From: Lama glama
Taxonomy: Eukaryota
Direction: 5' to 3'
DNA length: 64,000 bases
Assembly: GCA_028534125.1 (NCBI GenBank)
Contig: CM052816.1
Coordinates: forward strand, 29,700,001-29,764,000
A program made the translations under genes and the position numbers. Shown piece after piece: positions 8,559 through 53,590 of the stretch (its first letter is position 1; each line of letters begins with the position of its first letter). Below the pieces are notes generated by a model. It was not told the DNA's origin. It did not search any database and saw only the letters and a program-made list of their open reading frames with translations.

Positions 8559-8665
8559 GGGGGGGTTAATTAGGTTTATTTATTAGTTTTTAGAGGAGGT
8601 ACTGGGGATTGAACCCAGGACCTTGTGTATGCTTAGCTCTACCACTTGAGCTATACCCTCCCCCC
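8559..8665 (-). mobile_element. tRNA-Ala-derived SINE (camelid Vic-1-like)
   Basis: Reverse complement has A/B boxes (tagctcaagtggtaga, gggttcaatcccc); TSD aatgatgcacattt at 8545-8558 and 8667-8680. Confidence 0.9.
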
Positions 8666-8844
8666 AAATGATGCACATTTTTAAAAAAGGATTATTTAGT
8701 GCATTTTGTTTTACACATTGATTCTTTTAAACTACTTTTAATTTAGTTTTTTTTCACAGGAACAGAAGCTATGCCATTTTAGGTCTGTCCGGCCATGACT
8801 TGTATAGCCTAATGTATTGTATTTGACAGTAAGGTGTGGCTGCT

Positions 8845-16900: not shown

Positions 16901-18550
16901 CATTGTTAGATAGTGAGATGGTAAAAAAAATGATTATGTTGTGGAAATTGTGTTAGAAAATTATGAGAAAAATACTAAGGAAGATATTTTTTATAAAAAA
17001 TGTAAGATTTTAACTTAAGCCACCATGCAGTTGCTCATAGGATATAAGACCTTTCCCACAGTATCAAAGATCAGTTGATTCAAAATTTGAAAGCTTGCAG
17101 ATAATTTTATTTAGCTTTAGATGAGTCATATGATAAATGAGACAGTCTACTTAATACTTTTGGTAAAAAAATACTTTGGGTAAGTTCAAATGTAGGAAGA
17201 AAGATTGTCCATTTATAGCCTAAAAAAACTGAACTCAGGGCATAGATATATTTTGAATCTTCCCAATCTGTCAAAGAATTTCAGCCATATATGAAAAAAT
17301 TAGTTGTCATATGGATAGCTTATGGATAGTGTACCAGTCATGGTAGGTAAAAAATTCAAATTTATTGGAATTTTCAAGTAAGAAGTGATATTTTCTTTAT
17401 TGTTTCATTTCATCATGTGATATGCATTGAAAACATTTGGTTTTCTGAAGCAATGTCTCTAAAAAGTGTCATGGATACAGTTATTAAAAATAATTCTGTA
17501 TATTTATACAAATGCTATATAAATTATCACTGGCTTGTGGAACTATCGAAAAAAATAGAAGAAAATTAATTTAATCATCTTGTGTTTTCTGCCAGTGCTT
17601 GCGGTTGCATAGTAGAAGAGTTTTACAAGGAATTTTCTGTACTGTTAACTCCAAGTCACTGTGTGTCAAAGTTCAACAGCCAAAAACAAACAAAAGTGGC
17701 ATTGTGATTTGAATTTTTTCCACCAGTGTCATACTTTATATGATATAGGTAAGTTTGAGGCTCAAAGAAAGAAAAACTTTAATTAAAAAATGAAGACTGC
17801 TTTGTTGATTTTGTTAAATTTTAAGTTACTTTTCAATTTATGCAGTACCACTCTGAATTTGACATTAATAAAACAGGGCTGACAAAAGATTTAGTGAATT
17901 TACTCACTAGACAGTCATAATTTTTAAACTGATATGCTTTTGTTTCTGAGTTAAAGCAGTGATTTTTAAAAGCTGAAGCAATGTTGTCAATGTACATGAA
18001 TATACCAAAGGAATGTGTTTATGTGCTACATGAATGTGTTATTGGAAAACTTTGAAGTGTGTTTGGATCAACTTATGTGAACTACTTTTTAAACTATTTG
18101 ATAAAAATCTAAATACAGATGAAAAATTTACAATTAAAATTAGCCTCCTAATTAAGATGTTTTATATATATAAAGTGTACGATAAATTTCAAGGACATGA
18201 TTTTAATAACTTTTATAGCAGTTACATGTTAAAATAATATTTTGGATCTTTTTGGTTAAATAAAATATATTATTAAATAAATTTTACCTTTTTCTTTTTA
18301 CTTTTAAAAATGTGGCTATAAGAAAATTTAATATAGAGAAAAAAATGTGACAATGAGTGTGTATATGTCCATGAATGACTGAAAAATTGTGCTGAACACT
18401 GGAATTTGACACAACACTGTGAAGTGATTATGAATCAATAAACAAATGTAAAAAAAAAATAAATAAAAAACCTTTCATTCAATTAAAAAAAAAGAAAATT
18501 TAATATTACACATGTAGGTTGCAATATATTTTTTTATTAGATAGCACTAA
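16900..18550. mobile_element. hAT/Charlie5 (MER33-like) DNA transposon remnant with degraded internal region
   Basis: MER33-like end aaatgtggctataagaaaattt...attacacatgtaggttgc...ttagatagcact; internal ttagctttagatgagtca is reminiscent of hAT transposase LALDES. Confidence 0.65.
18335..18491 (+). mobile_element. Young L1 3' end inserted into the Charlie element
   Basis: TSD aagaaaatttaatat at 18320-18334 and 18492-18506; highly similar to the copies flanking the gap. Confidence 0.9.
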
Positions 18551-20371: not shown

Positions 20372-20491
20372 GGGGGGAGGATTTTGCTCAGTGATAGAGT
20401 GCATGCTTAGCATGCATGAGGTTCTGGGTTCAATCCCAGTACCTCCATTAAAAAATATATATATATGTATATATTTTTTAAAGAAGAAGAA
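20372..20491 (+). mobile_element. Vic-1-like tRNA SINE
   Basis: gctcagtgatagagtgcatgcttagcatgcatgaggttctgggttcaatccc; TSD aaaagtaatatatt at 20358-20371 and 20492-20505. Confidence 0.9.
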
Positions 20492-23014: not shown

Positions 23015-24570
23015 TTTCTTAAAAATGAAGTTTGGTTGATTTATAATATTAATTTCAGGTATACAATGTAATGATTCAATATTTTTATAGATTATACTCC
23101 ATTTAAAGTTATTATAGGCCCCCTCTCTCTCTTCCTCTTCGGAGACAGCCCACATTATGTCTATGGAATGTGTACCTACTTTTAATCTGAGCACCCAATC
23201 CCCACAACTTATAGCCTTTCTCTTGCCTTTAATGTATCTCTCTGAATAAATCTACCTTTACTAAAAAAAAAATAAATAAATAAAGTTATTATAAAACAAT
23301 GGCTAAATCTCCCTGTGCTCTGCTGTACAACATATCCTTGTTGCTTATCTATTTTATACACAGTAGTTTATATCTCTTAATGTCATACTCTGTCTTACCT
23401 CCCCACCACTGGGATCCAGTTTGTTCTCTCTGTGAGCCTGTTTCTTTTTTGTTATATCCATTCATTTTTATTTTTATATACCACATATAAGTGATATCAT
23501 ACAGTATTTGTCTTTCTCTGTGTGACTTGTTTCACTAAGCATAATACCCTCTAGGTCCATCCATATTGTTGCAAATGGCAGAATTTCATTCTTTTTAATG
23601 GCTGAGTAATAGTCCATTGCATGTATATACCATATCTTCTTTATCTATTCATCTGTTGATGGACACTTAGGTTGCTTCCATGTCTTGGCTATTGTAAATA
23701 ATGCTGCTATATGAACATTGGGGTGCATGTATCTTTTTGAATTAATGTTTTTATTTTCTTTGTTATATACTCAGGAATGGAATTACTGGATCATATTATA
23801 GTTCTATTTTTAGTTTTTTGAGGAATCTCCATACTGTTTTCCACAGTGGCTGCACCAGCTAACCTTCCCACCAAGAGTGTACAGAGGTTCCCTTTTCTCT
23901 ACATCCTCTCCAACATTTGTTATTTGTAGACTTTTTAATGATAGCCATCCTGAAAAGTGTAAAGTGATGTCTCACTGTGGTTTTTATTTACATTTCTCTA
24001 ATGATTAGCAGTGTTGAGCAGTTTTTCATGTGCTTGTTAGCCATCTATATATCTTCTTTGGAAAAATGTCTGCTCAGGTCTTCTGCCCACTTTTTAATCA
24101 GGTTGTCTTTTTGTTTGTTTGTTTGTTTTGATACTGAGTTGTATGAGCTATTTATTTTTGGCTATGAAGCCCTTCTCTGTCATATCATTTGCAAATGTTT
24201 TCTACCATTCAGTAGGTTGTCTTTTCATTTTGTTGATGGTTTCCTTTGCATAAAAGCGTTTAAGTTTAATTTTGTCCCCTTCTTAAAATTATTTTTGCTT
24301 TTGTTTCCTTTACCTTAGGAGACAGATCCAAAAAAAAATTACTATGATTTATGTCAAAGAATGTTCTGCCTGTGTTTTCTTCTAGAATTTTTATGGTTTG
24401 CGATGTTAAATTTAGGTCTTTAATCCTTTTTGAGTGTATTTTTGTATATGGTATGAGGAAGTGTTCTAATCTCATTTTTTAACATGTAGCTTATTGAAGA
24501 GACTGTCTTTTCTCCATTGTGTATTCTTGCCTCCTTTGTCCTAGATTAATTGACCATAGGTAAGTGGGTT
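23015..24570 (-). mobile_element. L1 3' UTR and ORF2 end, interrupted at 23117-23280
   Basis: Antisense L1; ORF 24266..24475 gives LEHFLIPYTKIHSKRIKDLNL. Confidence 0.9.
23117..23280 (+). mobile_element. Polyadenylated retrocopy resembling an ERV LTR R region
   Basis: AATAAA at 23245-23250, A tail from 23263, TSD taaagttattata at 23104-23116 and 23281-23293. Confidence 0.75.
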
Positions 24571-26458: not shown

Positions 26459-26547
26459 GGGGAGGTTAATAGCTCTGTGGTATAGCCGTGCTTAGCATGC
26501 AGAAGGTCCTGGTTTCAATCCCCAGTACCTCCGTTTAAAAAAAAAAA
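26459..26547 (+). mobile_element. Vic-1-like tRNA SINE
   Basis: atagctctgtggtatagccgtgcttagcatgcagaaggtcctggtttcaatccccagtacctcc plus A tail. Confidence 0.85.
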
Positions 26548-27462
26548 TTGGTATTTAGACCTTCACTGTTTACTTTTTCTGTATGAATCTAAACATATGC
26601 GAAATACAAGGTAGTGTTCTTTTTAAATGCTTTGTTGAAGAAATAGGTGTATATTTTCCAAAATAGATATATATTAGAATGCATTCAAAATATATGTAAC
26701 GTTAAAACTGAGATTAATTCTGTTGCACCACTGTTTTCTAAAAAAGTTACTAGTCAGTTAATATGATCAAATCATTTACATGTAATGTTTTGCTGATAGC
26801 ATCAGAGCTCTAAGGTGATTGAAATGATTTTCAACACACTTCAGTAAGCCATATGAAAATCCTAAGGAGCAAACTTGTCTTAGTTGTTGAGGAAAATCCC
26901 GAAGCAGAATATGTACTTAAATTAGAGAGTTTAAGGTCTTGATGCATACAAAGTTTGAAGGCACTTTGGTACTTGATATTTGCGAGTAGTGTGAGTTTGT
27001 AGAGGTTCAAAGCCTAACAGATATATGAAGATTGAGATAATATGGGAATGGAAAAAAACTATTTTTAAAAAGGAAATGAAGAAAAATAATAACAGTTTAG
27101 TTGTATCCAGAACCTAATGGAAAAACCCATTCCACTTGAAAATTAAGCAGTTTAATTAAGAGATTTTGAAACATTCCAAAGAAAATCCTATTACCACTTG
27201 ACTATGTTGAGTGTTTTTGAGTTTATTAATCTTTAAAACAGATTGTTTCTGAAGTTTGGGAATCTCAAATTCTGTTTATTGTAAGATATTCTAATTTTAG
27301 AGATGTTGAGATATGGGAAGACAATGTGTGTCTAAGAATCAGTGAAATACAAAGTTATTGTTTACAAGCAGAAAAAGATAAAAGAACTAGTCTAAAGTTG
27401 TAAAAATTGGTTTATGGTCTAGATATGAATTGAGTTCTAGTCTGGCTTCAGAATTCTTTCTC

Positions 27463-28804
27463 CTTTTAAGAGAACTCTGGGGCAACATGAAGTGCACTAA
27501 TATTCGCACTATAGGGGTCCCAGAAAGAGAAGAGAGAGAGAAGGAACCGGAGAAAATTTTTGAAGAGATTATGATAAAAACTTCCCCAACTTGGGAAAGG
27601 AAACAGTCACCCAAGTCCAGGAAGTGCAGAGAGTACCACACAGAATCAACCCAAAAAGGAGCACACCGAGGCACATAGTCATCAAATTGACAACAATTAA
27701 GGGTAAGGAGAAAATATTAAAATTAGTAAGAGAAAAGCAACAAATAATGTACAGGGGAACTCCCATAAGGGATTTTTCAGCAGAAATTCTACAGGCCAGA
27801 AGGGAGTGGGGAGATATATTTAAAGTGATGAAAGGGAAAAACCTACAACCTATCCAGCAATACTCTCATTCAGATTTGATGTAGAAATCAAAAGCTTCAC
27901 AGATAAACAAAAGCTAGAAGAATTCAGCACCACAAAACCAGCTTTACAACAGATGTTAAAGGAAGTTCTTTAGTCATCAAACCATAAGAAAAGAGAACAA
28001 AAAGAAGAAAGAGCAAAAAAAAAAAAAAAAAAGACCTACAAAAGATTACTTTGGCAGTTTGGGGTCTTTTATGGTTCCATATAAATTTTGGAATTGTTTG
28101 TTCTAGTTCTGTGAAAAATACTGAGTACTTTGACAGGAGTTGCATGGATCTGTAGATTGCTTTTGGTAGTACAGCTATTTTGATAATGTTGACTCTTCCA
28201 ATCCAAGAGCACAATGTTGAGTCTTCCGATCTTTCCGTTTCTTTGTATCATCTTCAGTTTCCTTCATCAGTGTTTTACAGTTTTTAGGGTATAAGTAACC
28301 TCCTTGGTTAAGTTTATTTCTAGGTATTTTGTTGTTTTTGATGCAATGGAAATGTTTATGCCAGTCATAAATTTCTCATTTTTGAAGTGGGGGAAAAAAA
28401 GTGAATGAAGGGCTGCAAAAGGCAAAATATCCTTCTCTCTTATGGGTGGATTGTATTCCATTACATATATATGCTGCATCTTCTTTATCCATTCATCTAT
28501 TGATGTGCACTTATGATGCTTCTATATCTTGGCAGTTTTAGATAGGGTTGCTGTTAATAGTGAGGTGTATGTATCTTTTTAAATTAATTCTTATTTTGTG
28601 GTTGACTTTATTCCTTTGATAACTATGTGGGTTTAAAAAGCTAAAGCTCTAAATGTTCTTGGAAACAATGAACAGTACATATGTGTAAGTTTAAAAAATA
28701 TGTGCAGTATATTGTGTGTATGTATTTACACGCAATACATCGTATATGTGCAGTCAAATTGTAACAATCCTACCTAATAAAACTGAAAAAGAAGAAATAA
28801 AAAA
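27463..28804 (+). mobile_element. Composite L1-derived retroelement (ORF1 sense, inverted ORF2/3' pieces, distinct tail, A-rich end)
   Basis: TSD agaattctttctc at 27450-27462 and 28805-28817; ORF1 peptides NIRTIGVPE and QRVPHRINPKRSTPRHIVIK. Confidence 0.75.
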
Positions 28805-29139
28805 AGAATTCTTTCTCTTAACCACTAAAATGTAATGTCTCACCTACAGATGTCTTTGTATGTCAGTACATAAGATATACACCGCCCCCCCAACCCCCAA
28901 AATCCTCATGACATTCCATTCAATAGATGTGTTGTAGTTTAACTTTTTCCCTGTTGCTGTATATTTAGTTTGTATCCAACTCTTTGCTATTATATAAATA
29001 GTGCTACATTCAACATCCTAATAGGTATGTATACGTGTGTGTTTATCTCTGGTGGATAACTGGAAATAAAATGGCTGAGTCGAGGAGTATTCATGTTTTA
29101 AATTTGATAGAAACTATAAAGTTGCCATATCAGCTTTGA

Positions 29140-29780
29140 CCATTGTGAGCTCGTTCACATTGATTCCTGTGTCCTTCCAACATGCCTTAGCCTTTTTCCC
29201 CACCCACCTCTCTAAGTACGTCCTTACCCTGTGTCACTCCAAGGTACTCCAGGCTCATCTTCTGTTTTCCCTGCCTCAGTCATAAAATTTTCCAGCTCAG
29301 CCATTTTCGAAGAATCCCTGGTTCCTTTTGTTGACAAATTGTATTTAGAAACCAAGGTATGCTTGCTGCTACTGGGATGTCACTTTTATGGGCCCTCTCA
29401 GTTGACAGCCCTAGAAAATGTACACACATCTCTATTTCTGTGTCTAGCTATTTTGTATCTGCATTTATATTAAAGCAGATGAGTTTATATTGATGTCTCC
29501 AACTCTGATCCAATACCACAGGGTTCATTCTAGACTTTCTGCATTGCTTATTTGTAAATTCTTTCTCTGACCTTGAGGAACCTGACTTCCATTATCTGCA
29601 TTTTATCTATTCAACCTGAGTATGCATGTAAACTAGTTTCAGAATTTTTAACTTCTGTCCACATAAGAGACACTTACCAACTAGACTAATCTGTTTATGT
29701 ACATTTCTTTTTGTCTTTATCCTAACAGAATCAAGTTAAAACACCATTTTCCAAAGTTACCTAGATCAGCTCTATTTTTC
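29140..29780 (-). mobile_element. Old L1 3' UTR fragment (L1MC/MD-like)
   Basis: ctccaggctcatctt...gaatccctggttccttt...gtatttagaaaccaag. Confidence 0.6.
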
Positions 29781-34195: not shown

Positions 34196-34292
34196 TAAAT
34201 AATTTTTTTAATGGAGATACTAGTGATTGAACCCAGGACCTTGTGCATGCCAAACATACGCTCTGTCACTGAGGTATACCCACCCCCCCACC
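34196..34292 (-). mobile_element. Vic-1-like tRNA SINE (diverged)
   Basis: gattgaacccaggaccttgtgcatgccaaacatacgctctgtcactgaggtataccc; flanking taaccattt repeats. Confidence 0.85.
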
Positions 34293-34434
34293 CATTATAA
34301 CCATTTAAAACTGTATATTTTTCAAGTGTTCAAGCATCTTATTTTAGATGGCAGACGATCTCGTTTTGAAATATACAAAGCTGTGTGATTGCCTTAAGAC
34401 CAAAAATCCTTTTTGCCATATGAAGGTTTATACA

Positions 34435-37770: not shown

Positions 37771-37862
37771 GGGTCAGTAGGAGGGTAGTAGCTCAGAGCA
37801 CATGTTTAGCATGCACAAGGTCCTAGGTTCATTCCCAGTACCTTCATTAAAAAAAAAGAGAG
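37771..37862 (+). mobile_element. Vic-1-like tRNA SINE
   Basis: gtagctcagagcacatgtttagcatgcacaaggtcctaggttcattcccagtacc plus A tail; agatgtat flanks. Confidence 0.8.
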
Positions 37863-37968
37863 AGATGTATTAGTGAATCTACCTATCTATCTAAATTTCT
37901 CTGAGTGTGTGGAGCATATTGGGAGGGGTATCATAAGAGTGTTAATCATTTTGGTTAAATTGTATTTC

Positions 37969-38103
37969 TTTTTTTTTTTTTACATTTTTTATTGATTCAT
38001 AATCATTTTACAGTGTTGTGTCAAATTCCAGTGTTCAGCACAATTTTTCAGTCATTCATGGACATATACACACTCATTGTCACTTTTTTTCTCTGTGATT
38101 TAT
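37969..38103 (-). mobile_element. Young L1 3' end (runs into the gap)
   Basis: Poly(T) followed by the reverse complement of the same L1 3' end as 18335-18470. Confidence 0.9.
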
Positions 38104-38603
38104 NNNNNNNNNNNNNNNNNNNNNNNNNNNNNNNNNNNNNNNNNNNNNNNNNNNNNNNNNNNNNNNNNNNNNNNNNNNNNNNNNNNNNNNNNNNNNNNNN
38201 NNNNNNNNNNNNNNNNNNNNNNNNNNNNNNNNNNNNNNNNNNNNNNNNNNNNNNNNNNNNNNNNNNNNNNNNNNNNNNNNNNNNNNNNNNNNNNNNNNNN
38301 NNNNNNNNNNNNNNNNNNNNNNNNNNNNNNNNNNNNNNNNNNNNNNNNNNNNNNNNNNNNNNNNNNNNNNNNNNNNNNNNNNNNNNNNNNNNNNNNNNNN
38401 NNNNNNNNNNNNNNNNNNNNNNNNNNNNNNNNNNNNNNNNNNNNNNNNNNNNNNNNNNNNNNNNNNNNNNNNNNNNNNNNNNNNNNNNNNNNNNNNNNNN
38501 NNNNNNNNNNNNNNNNNNNNNNNNNNNNNNNNNNNNNNNNNNNNNNNNNNNNNNNNNNNNNNNNNNNNNNNNNNNNNNNNNNNNNNNNNNNNNNNNNNNN
38601 NNN
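38104..38603. other. Assembly gap (500 N)
   Basis: Run of N. Confidence 1.
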
Positions 38604-38753
38604 ACACAAAATGTTATGATAACTCACAGAGGAAAAAATGTGACAATGAGTGTGTATATGTCTATGAATGACTGAAAAATTGTGCTGAACACTGGAATTT
38701 GACACAACATTGTGAAATGATTATAAATCAATAAAAAATGTTAAAAAAAAAAA
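38604..38753 (+). mobile_element. Young L1 3' end (emerges from the gap)
   Basis: aatgtgacaatgagtgtgtatatgtctatgaatgactgaaaaattgtgctgaacactgg...aataaaaaatgtt plus A tail. Confidence 0.9.
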
Positions 38754-41533: not shown

Positions 41534-41662
41534 GTGCAGTTAAAAACTAGCATTTCTAGTCAGTATGTAATTCGGACACAACCAACTAATAGGTGCCTTT
41601 CTACCCTGGAGTGTGCAGCTGTTGCTCTTTCTATCTTGGAGAAAAATAATTACATACAAGAG
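41534..41662 (+). CDS. DTWD2: DTWD2 (DTW domain tRNA-uridine aminocarboxypropyltransferase 2), penultimate coding exon
   Basis: Acceptor ttttgctttcag|GTG, donor GAG|gtatgt, 129 bp, phase 0. Translates to [43 protein letters not shown], containing the DTW-domain LSTLE motif; recognised as mammalian DTWD2. Confidence 0.95.
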
Positions 41663-53470: not shown

Positions 53471-53590
53471 GGGAGAGGGTGTAGCTCAAGTGGTAGAGCA
53501 CATGCTTAGCATGCAGGAGGTCCTGGGTTCAATCCCCAGTACCTCCTCCAAAAAATAAATAAACCTAACTATTTCCCCCCTCAAAAAAAA
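53471..53590 (+). mobile_element. Young Vic-1-like tRNA-Ala SINE
   Basis: ggtgtagctcaagtggtagagcacatgcttagcatgcaggaggtcctgggttcaatccccagtacctcc, then aaataaataaacctaactatttccccc and A tail; perfect 25 bp TSD. Confidence 0.95.

What the first reader, a model, noticed from the sequence alone, without database searches (positions are those of the whole stretch)
27450..28817. Half-L1-like composite retroelement inserted as one unit: ORF1, inverted ORF2 remnants and a distinct polyadenylated tail
Seen: a 13 bp direct repeat (agaattctttctc) brackets 1342 bp. Removing the insert restores tctggcttcagaattctttctcttaaccact, which reads like a MIR terminus, so this looks like one insertion event. Inside are the C-terminal half of L1 ORF1 plus the inter-ORF spacer in sense (about 27466-28040), antisense ORF2 (about 28042-28355), a short linker, an antisense ORF2-end/3' UTR piece (about 28414-28590), then about 200 bp unlike the other L1 3' ends here, ending in AATAAA and an A-rich tail. 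Known: twin priming inverts the 5' part and leaves the 3' part sense, which is not this layout. HAL1 (half-L1) elements are ORF1-only non-autonomous L1 derivatives that arose independently in several mammals. Inference: a 5'-truncated copy of a camelid or artiodactyl HAL1-like family, or a one-off retrocopy of a chimeric transcript.
Basis: partly seen in the sequence, partly recalled or inferred. Interest (0 to 1): 0.7.

Follow-up and report, generated by a model that had tools for sequence, protein, structure and literature searches.

The report
Half-L1-like composite with a sister copy
This 1.3-kb insert is an old, shortened, dead copy of a jumping element built from the front half of a LINE-1 plus two backward-facing scraps of its second gene, and a second, diverged copy with the same joints exists elsewhere, so it is probably one member of a repeated family.

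Summary
The insert is real. It lies sense to a DTWD2-like exon. One database protein, P0267 (1 of 130 hits), reads through both internal junctions in the same order, shares 17 derived residues with this copy and is about 10% diverged from it at DNA level. The junctions are therefore not unique to this locus, and nested insertion is refuted. Best reading: a 5'-truncated copy of a dispersed, ORF1-only (HAL1-like) L1 derivative mobilised in trans. Copy number was not measured beyond two. The organism of P0267, an intact ORF1, a 5' UTR and absence from Repbase/Dfam are all untested. An orthologue or source-locus origin for P0267 is not excluded. Probably a new member of a known kind; moderate interest.

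The parts
27450..27462 (+). 5' target-site duplication; the bottom strand at its left edge reads TTCT/GA, an L1 endonuclease-type site
   Evidence: consensus in PMC4859970
27466..27973 (+). C-terminal half of L1 ORF1 (RRM-like and C-terminal domains), 5'-truncated, with at least two frameshifts and one in-frame deletion; stop TAG at 27971-27973
   Evidence: 111 of 133 residues in three in-frame pieces equal the majority of database ORF1 hits
27971..28043 (+). Distal ~70 nt of an artiodactyl-type L1 intergenic region, joined to the ORF1 stop at a shared TAG, with an expanded A run; it stops ~23 nt before the place of the ORF2 start codon
   Evidence: by-eye comparison with pig L1 consensus text (PMC6501411 supplement 1); P0267 residues 130-147 match its minus strand
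28042..28380 (-). Piece A: antisense L1 ORF2 remnant, aa ~750-860; 2-nt overlap (AA) with the spacer; private 19-nt local duplication (28185/28213)
28381..28413 (.). Linker of unknown origin, shared with P0267 (minus-strand frame LHSLFF)
   Evidence: no window match above shuffles
28414..28604 (-). Piece B: antisense L1 ORF2 remnant, aa ~1183-1244; ends inside the coding region, no 3' UTR
28605..28775 (+). Tail of unplaced origin; only weak, gappy likeness to sense L1 3' ends
   Evidence: (3 of 40 tests at p 0.007, all under loose scoring, none under tight scoring)
28776..28804 (+). AATAAA (28776-28781), 4 nt, then a decayed A-rich tail
28805..28817 (+). 3' target-site duplication
41534..41662 (+). 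Context: DTW-domain exon (AG/GT bounded) on the same strand as the insert; the name DTWD2 is recalled
   Evidence: Pfam PF03942 at 38.9 bits, cut-off 33.7

Best explanation
A 5'-truncated, dead copy of a dispersed non-autonomous L1 derivative that works like a HAL1. Shown: one L1-type insertion event; the internal composite also exists at a second, diverged place. Inferred: a master locus had an L1 promoter and ORF1 but lost ORF2, so transcription ran from the spacer into two antisense ORF2 remnants and a tail with its own poly(A) signal. The polyadenylated RNA, probably coated in cis by its own ORF1p, took ORF2p from autonomous L1s and was copied to many sites by target-primed reverse transcription. 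This copy stopped inside ORF1 and has since decayed by about 5%.
For: TSD, endonuclease site and A-tail. P0267 (149 aa; NCBI source, one 1,027-nt contig) runs B-end, linker, A, spacer in the order of the window's minus strand; 112 of 142 aligned residues are identical over seven frame blocks (7 residues at block joints left out), which a simulation puts at ~10% DNA divergence, range 7-14%. The two share 6 of 17 (B) and 11 of 65 (A) residues that differ from the majority of ordinary ORF2 hits; none of 117 hits carries more than 4 of the 6 and none of 131 more than 5 of the 11. Each copy has private indels, so neither is a plain duplicate of the other. The P0267 stop falls on the same codon as in the window frame, the reverse complement of the ORF1 stop, which hints that ORF1 adjoins there too. 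The window's own frame was not among the 53 hits, so the library samples this DNA thinly, and a chance catch favours a many-copy family over one locus (inference).
Against: Only two copies are known. No read-depth or genome count exists (searches gave no data). P0267 does not cover ORF1, the tail or flanks, and its organism is unknown (could not be made; searches found no contig). The junction was not seen again: 0 of 53 hits, 0 of the 119 other listed hits of 1,274, one chance bacterial match in metagenomes, 0. ORF1 is not clearly better kept than piece A: rare residues 19 of 133 against 14 of 84, p 0.70, with an 11-residue piece of A dropped for lack of hits. So selection on ORF1 is not shown.
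Confidence: 0.62

Rival explanations
1. A dispersed composite family that does not depend on its ORF1: the master was a dead, rearranged L1 locus with a working promoter, and its RNA was copied repeatedly like a processed pseudogene.
For: Same evidence for a second copy. ORF1 is about as decayed as piece A.
Against: With ~5% private decay expected, 111 of 133 identity to ordinary ORF1 leaves little room for decay in the master; B is further from ordinary L1 than ORF1 is (23 of 58 against 19 of 133 rare residues, p 0.0002, but ordinary hits are also twice as variable there).
Confidence: 0.17
2. A rare retrocopy or 3'-transduction-like event: P0267 comes from the source locus or from one of a handful of siblings.
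For: Only one other copy was found in all searches. Read-through transductions with shared downstream sequence are known (PMC13756887, passage).
Against: Catching one particular locus in a library that does not hold this window's own frame is unlikely (inference).
Confidence: 0.12
3. A one-off insertion, with P0267 the orthologous copy in another camelid.
For: 20 of 24 listed runs, 5 organism labels and 8 studies, hold 0.59-0.63 of the words of 26900-29300, more than the 0.44 that flanks could give, so the insert or near-identical sequence is shared across labels. The rate used in PMC8605555 (2.5e-8 per 5-year generation) with a recalled ~16-million-year camel-llama split would allow more than 10% divergence.
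Against: My recalled genome-wide camel-alpaca divergence is 3-4%; at 5% or less no simulation of 1,000 fell to the observed identity. Six frame or length differences lie in ~480 nt. The thin-sampling argument applies here too.
Confidence: 0.07
4. Independent nested insertions or later deletions built the block in place.
For: Antisense L1 fragments are common in this intron.
Against: A and B have no poly(A) end or duplication of their own, one TSD pair brackets everything, and the same junctions occur in a diverged second sequence.
Confidence: 0.02

Closest known systems
HAL1 (half-L1) elements of mammals (Bao and Jurka 2010, not held; described in passages of PMC5753468, PMC5786205, PMC13756887, PMC4859970)
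   Same: L1 ORF1 in sense, no sense ORF2, poly(A) end, target-site duplication; dependent on L1 ORF2p in trans; more than one copy.
   Different: The region after ORF1 is made of two non-collinear antisense ORF2 remnants plus an unplaced tail. Intact ORF1 and 5' UTR are not shown. No camelid HAL1 name turned up: the 6 of 6 HAL1 places in the camelid casein-cluster Repbase table are tree-shrew or bat families, but that covers one locus only.
HAL1_SSc of pig (Repbase; PMC6501411)
   Same: ORF1-only L1 derivative in another artiodactyl; listed as 3,016 bp with a 906-bp ORF1.
   Different: The part of the sequence under that label that I read (supplement 1, part 4 of 56) has a sense ORF2 and no antisense part; four junction or tail motifs of the window were absent from both supplement files. 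The true Repbase consensus was not seen.
L1 3' transduction and processed pseudogenes (PMC13756887, PMC4859970, passages)
   Same: Read-through RNA with a downstream poly(A) signal, copied by L1 with TSD and 5' truncation.
   Different: No L1 3' end or first poly(A) tract precedes the captured sequence; the switch happens in the spacer, before ORF2.
Twin-primed 5' inversions of L1 (PMC4859970, passage)
   Same: Sense and antisense L1 sequence within one TSD pair.
   Different: Here the 5' part is sense and two later parts are antisense and out of order.

Membership tests
HAL1 | Derived from L1 and carries ORF1 sequence in sense | tested here: met
HAL1 | No ORF2 coding capacity | tested here: met
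   only antisense remnants of aa ~750-860 and ~1183-1244 between spacer and tail
HAL1 | Inserted by L1 machinery (TSD, endonuclease site, poly(A)) | tested here: met
HAL1 | Dispersed multi-copy family | tested here: inconclusive
   a second diverged sequence with the same junctions (P0267); its flanks and the copy number are unknown
HAL1 | Intact, constrained ORF1 in the family master | tested here: inconclusive
   this copy is broken; ORF1 is no better kept than piece A (p 0.70) and better than piece B (p 0.0002)
HAL1 | L1-type 5' UTR with internal promoter | not testable with these tools
   the copy is 5'-truncated inside ORF1; no genome held
HAL1 | Match to a catalogued Repbase or Dfam consensus | not testable with these tools
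   no repeat library available; only indirect looks
Twin-primed L1 | Inverted 5' part followed by a sense 3' part that ends in the L1 3' UTR | tested here: not met
   order is sense ORF1, antisense A, antisense B
L1 3' transduction | L1 3' end and first poly(A) tract ahead of the transduced flank | tested here: not met
   no sense L1 3' end precedes A; the A run at 28015-28032 is part of the spacer
Spliced L1 retrocopy (SpIRE-type) | Junctions at splice donor and acceptor sites of the parent L1 | tested here: inconclusive
   by eye against pig L1 text: no GT follows either join and no pyrimidine tract precedes the spacer AG; the camelid parent was not available

The most novel reading that the evidence does not exclude
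An uncatalogued camelid HAL1 family, arisen independently, whose ~520 nt of antisense ORF2 sequence is functional: its RNA pairs with autonomous L1 mRNA, either docking beside newly made ORF2p to capture it or feeding small-RNA silencing of L1. That would be a parasite that finds or controls its helper by base pairing.
Probability: 0.07. Interest if true: 0.78.

Novelty: new member of a known kind. Interest (0 to 1): 0.42.

Why it matters
HAL1-type elements arose several times in mammals, and how they form and why they keep ORF1 is still open. A camelid family with clear junctions and about 5% decay per copy would give one more independent origin whose master, source fragments and selection on ORF1 can be read from existing assemblies. 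Its copies could also serve as insertion markers for camelid phylogeny, and repeat annotation would now split each copy into several unrelated L1 fragments. This single copy is dead and probably has no function.

Tried and rejected
No whole genome is held, and the read-laying run gave no table, so copy number, empty sites and polymorphism stay open. A junction 20-mer in metagenome contigs gave 1 match, L001, a bacterial coding region matched by chance. A 24-mer gave 0 matches in viral and in prokaryote contigs. The contig of P0267 was not found: the cluster look-up could not be made, and none of 89 and none of 9 pattern matches encoded a relative. The spacer|A frame as query gave 53 hits of 87 candidates, all ordinary ORF2. 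P0278 and P0238 join late ORF2 to mid ORF2 in the same order as B and A but at other points and without the linker, so they were rejected as family copies; P0298 is a low-complexity chance hit. The tail and the linker matched nothing in the window above shuffles. The tail as a decayed sense L1 3' UTR: 3 of 40 tests at p 0.007 under loose scoring, in different registers, none under tight scoring; unresolved. The RNA of 27960-28804 folds no better than shuffles (z -1.0, 3 of 20 as good). Rfam found only two tRNA-like matches elsewhere. The intact TSD says nothing on age (chance 0.26 at 5% decay). Earlier notes of this scan held no look-alike. Paper searches showed no description of a camelid HAL1 or of this layout; Bao and Jurka 2010, the supplements of PMC8605555, Repbase and Dfam could not be seen and may hold it.

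Full report
Observation. The 13-bp repeat is exact at 27450-27462 and 28805-28817 and encloses 1,342 bp. Exact 13-mers are common here, with 33 pairs within 7 kb of each other, so the case rests on position. The right copy follows AATAAA (28776) and an A-rich run, the left copy lies 3 nt before ORF1 homology, and the bottom strand reads TTCT/GA, within the YYYY/RR consensus given in PMC4859970 (passage). The MIR reading of the empty site fits my recall but found no support in the window (80.0 against a shuffle maximum of 84.5). A DTW-domain exon lies at 41534-41662 on the + strand, so the insert is sense to the host gene.

Anatomy. 27466-27973 is the C-terminal half of ORF1, broken by frameshifts. 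27971-28043 matches by eye the last ~70 nt of the long pig L1 intergenic region and is joined to the ORF1 stop at a shared TAG (PMC6501411 supplement 1). Whether that short spacer came from a camelid parent L1 is unknown; two pig subfamilies have 67-68-bp spacers (passage). Piece A (28042-~28380) is antisense ORF2 aa ~860-750 and piece B (28414-~28604) is antisense aa ~1244-1183. B holds no 3' UTR. Neither piece has a poly(A) end or TSD of its own. The linker and the tail match nothing in the window above shuffles; a loose likeness of the tail to L1 3' ends was seen in 3 of 40 tests only.

A second copy. No genome is held and the read-laying run gave no data, so I searched with frames that cross the junctions. 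The B-linker-A frame against 1.84 billion representatives gave 130 hits. One, P0267, reads from the end of B through the linker and A into the antisense spacer. Over seven frame blocks 112 of 142 residues are identical; 7 residues at block joints were left out, and one search corrects a misframed block. Simulation puts this at about 10% DNA divergence (7-14%). The two sequences share 17 residues that differ from the majority of ordinary ORF2 hits (6 of 17 in B, 11 of 65 in A). Some of these are common variants, but none of 117 and none of 131 ordinary hits carries more than 4 of 6 or 5 of 11. P0267 lacks this copy's 19-nt duplication and has its own deletion. It comes from one 1,027-nt NCBI contig whose organism and flanks I could not get. 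No third copy appeared: 0 of 53, 0 of 119 other listed hits of 1,274, one chance bacterial match, 0.

What that means. Shown: the composite existed before this insertion and exists at a second, diverged place, which rules out assembly in place unless P0267 is the orthologue. Inferred: the library did not return this window's own frame, so it samples this DNA thinly, and catching a sister is far likelier for a family of many copies than for one source locus or one orthologue. The orthologue reading needs 7-14% divergence. My recalled camel-alpaca figure is 3-4%, which the simulation rejects, but the rate used in PMC8605555 (passage) would allow it, so it stays at low odds.

Mechanism. Most likely a master locus kept an L1 promoter and ORF1, lost ORF2 at the spacer, and read on through two antisense ORF2 remnants to a new poly(A) signal. 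Its RNA was copied in trans by L1 ORF2p, and this copy was cut short inside ORF1. Only the insertion hallmarks and the shared junctions are shown; promoter, open ORF1 and cis use of ORF1p are inferred from HAL1 biology (passages of PMC5753468, PMC5786205, PMC4859970). Tests for a better-kept ORF1 were mixed: 19 of 133 rare residues in ORF1, 14 of 84 in A (p 0.70; an 11-residue piece dropped for lack of hits) and 23 of 58 in B (p 0.0002, against a baseline twice as high). B is also among the most diverged of 8 homologous pieces in the window (mean identity 0.715, range 0.70-0.80). A may thus be an inverted part of the same L1 as ORF1 and B an older fossil, but this is not settled.

Known or new. 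It works like a HAL1. Membership is met on three features, inconclusive on two and untestable on two. Nine paper searches showed no camelid HAL1 and no such layout. I saw search listings, passages of PMC4161310, PMC5753468, PMC6726744, PMC8605555, PMC5786205, PMC13756887, PMC6501411, PMC4859970 and PMC3342881, part 1 of 6 and term searches of Table 4 of PMC6726744, and part 4 of 56 and term searches of supplement 1 of PMC6501411. Bao and Jurka 2010, the supplements of PMC8605555, Repbase and Dfam were not seen, and I put the odds that some library already holds a model of this family near one half. Earlier AI notes on this genome report another half-L1 family carrying a cTAGE-like gene and spliced mini-L1 families; I did not check them and use them only as context.

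Verdict. A real single insertion, probably a member of a dispersed HAL1-like family with an unusual antisense 3' half. New member of a known kind; interest 0.42.

Noticed in passing
window ~23117-23283: A ~170-bp insert with a T run at one end interrupts an antisense L1 3' UTR and is bracketed by a 13-bp repeat (TATAATAACTTTA on the minus strand, printout). On the + strand it ends in AATAAA and an A run; it looks to me like the end of an LTR-driven transcript copied by L1 (recalled likeness).
   Followed up: no
window 18335-18467, 37965-38103, 38619-38753: Three short L1 3' ends that are 94-95% alike. Two of them face each other across the 500-N gap at 38104-38603, so the gap may hide an inverted young L1 or an assembly artefact.
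   Followed up: no
window 20377-20447, 53475-53547, 26460-26550, 8559-8688, 34203-34315, 37794-37857: Copies of a tRNA-derived SINE; two pass the Rfam tRNA threshold. Two have 13-bp flanking repeats (53448/53593, 8545/8667).
   Followed up: no
P0278, P0238: Database proteins that join late ORF2 (aa ~1200-1255) to mid ORF2 (aa ~745-800), the same order as B and A here but at other break points; such joins seem to arise independently.
   Followed up: partly
PMC6501411 supplement 1, part 4: The entry labelled L1A6/HAL1_SSc runs through a sense ORF2 to an L1 3' end, although supplement 2 lists it as 3,016 bp with ORF1 only; label and sequence may not match.
   Followed up: no
L001 525-544: A chance 20-base match to the junction inside a bacterial coding region.
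   Followed up: yes
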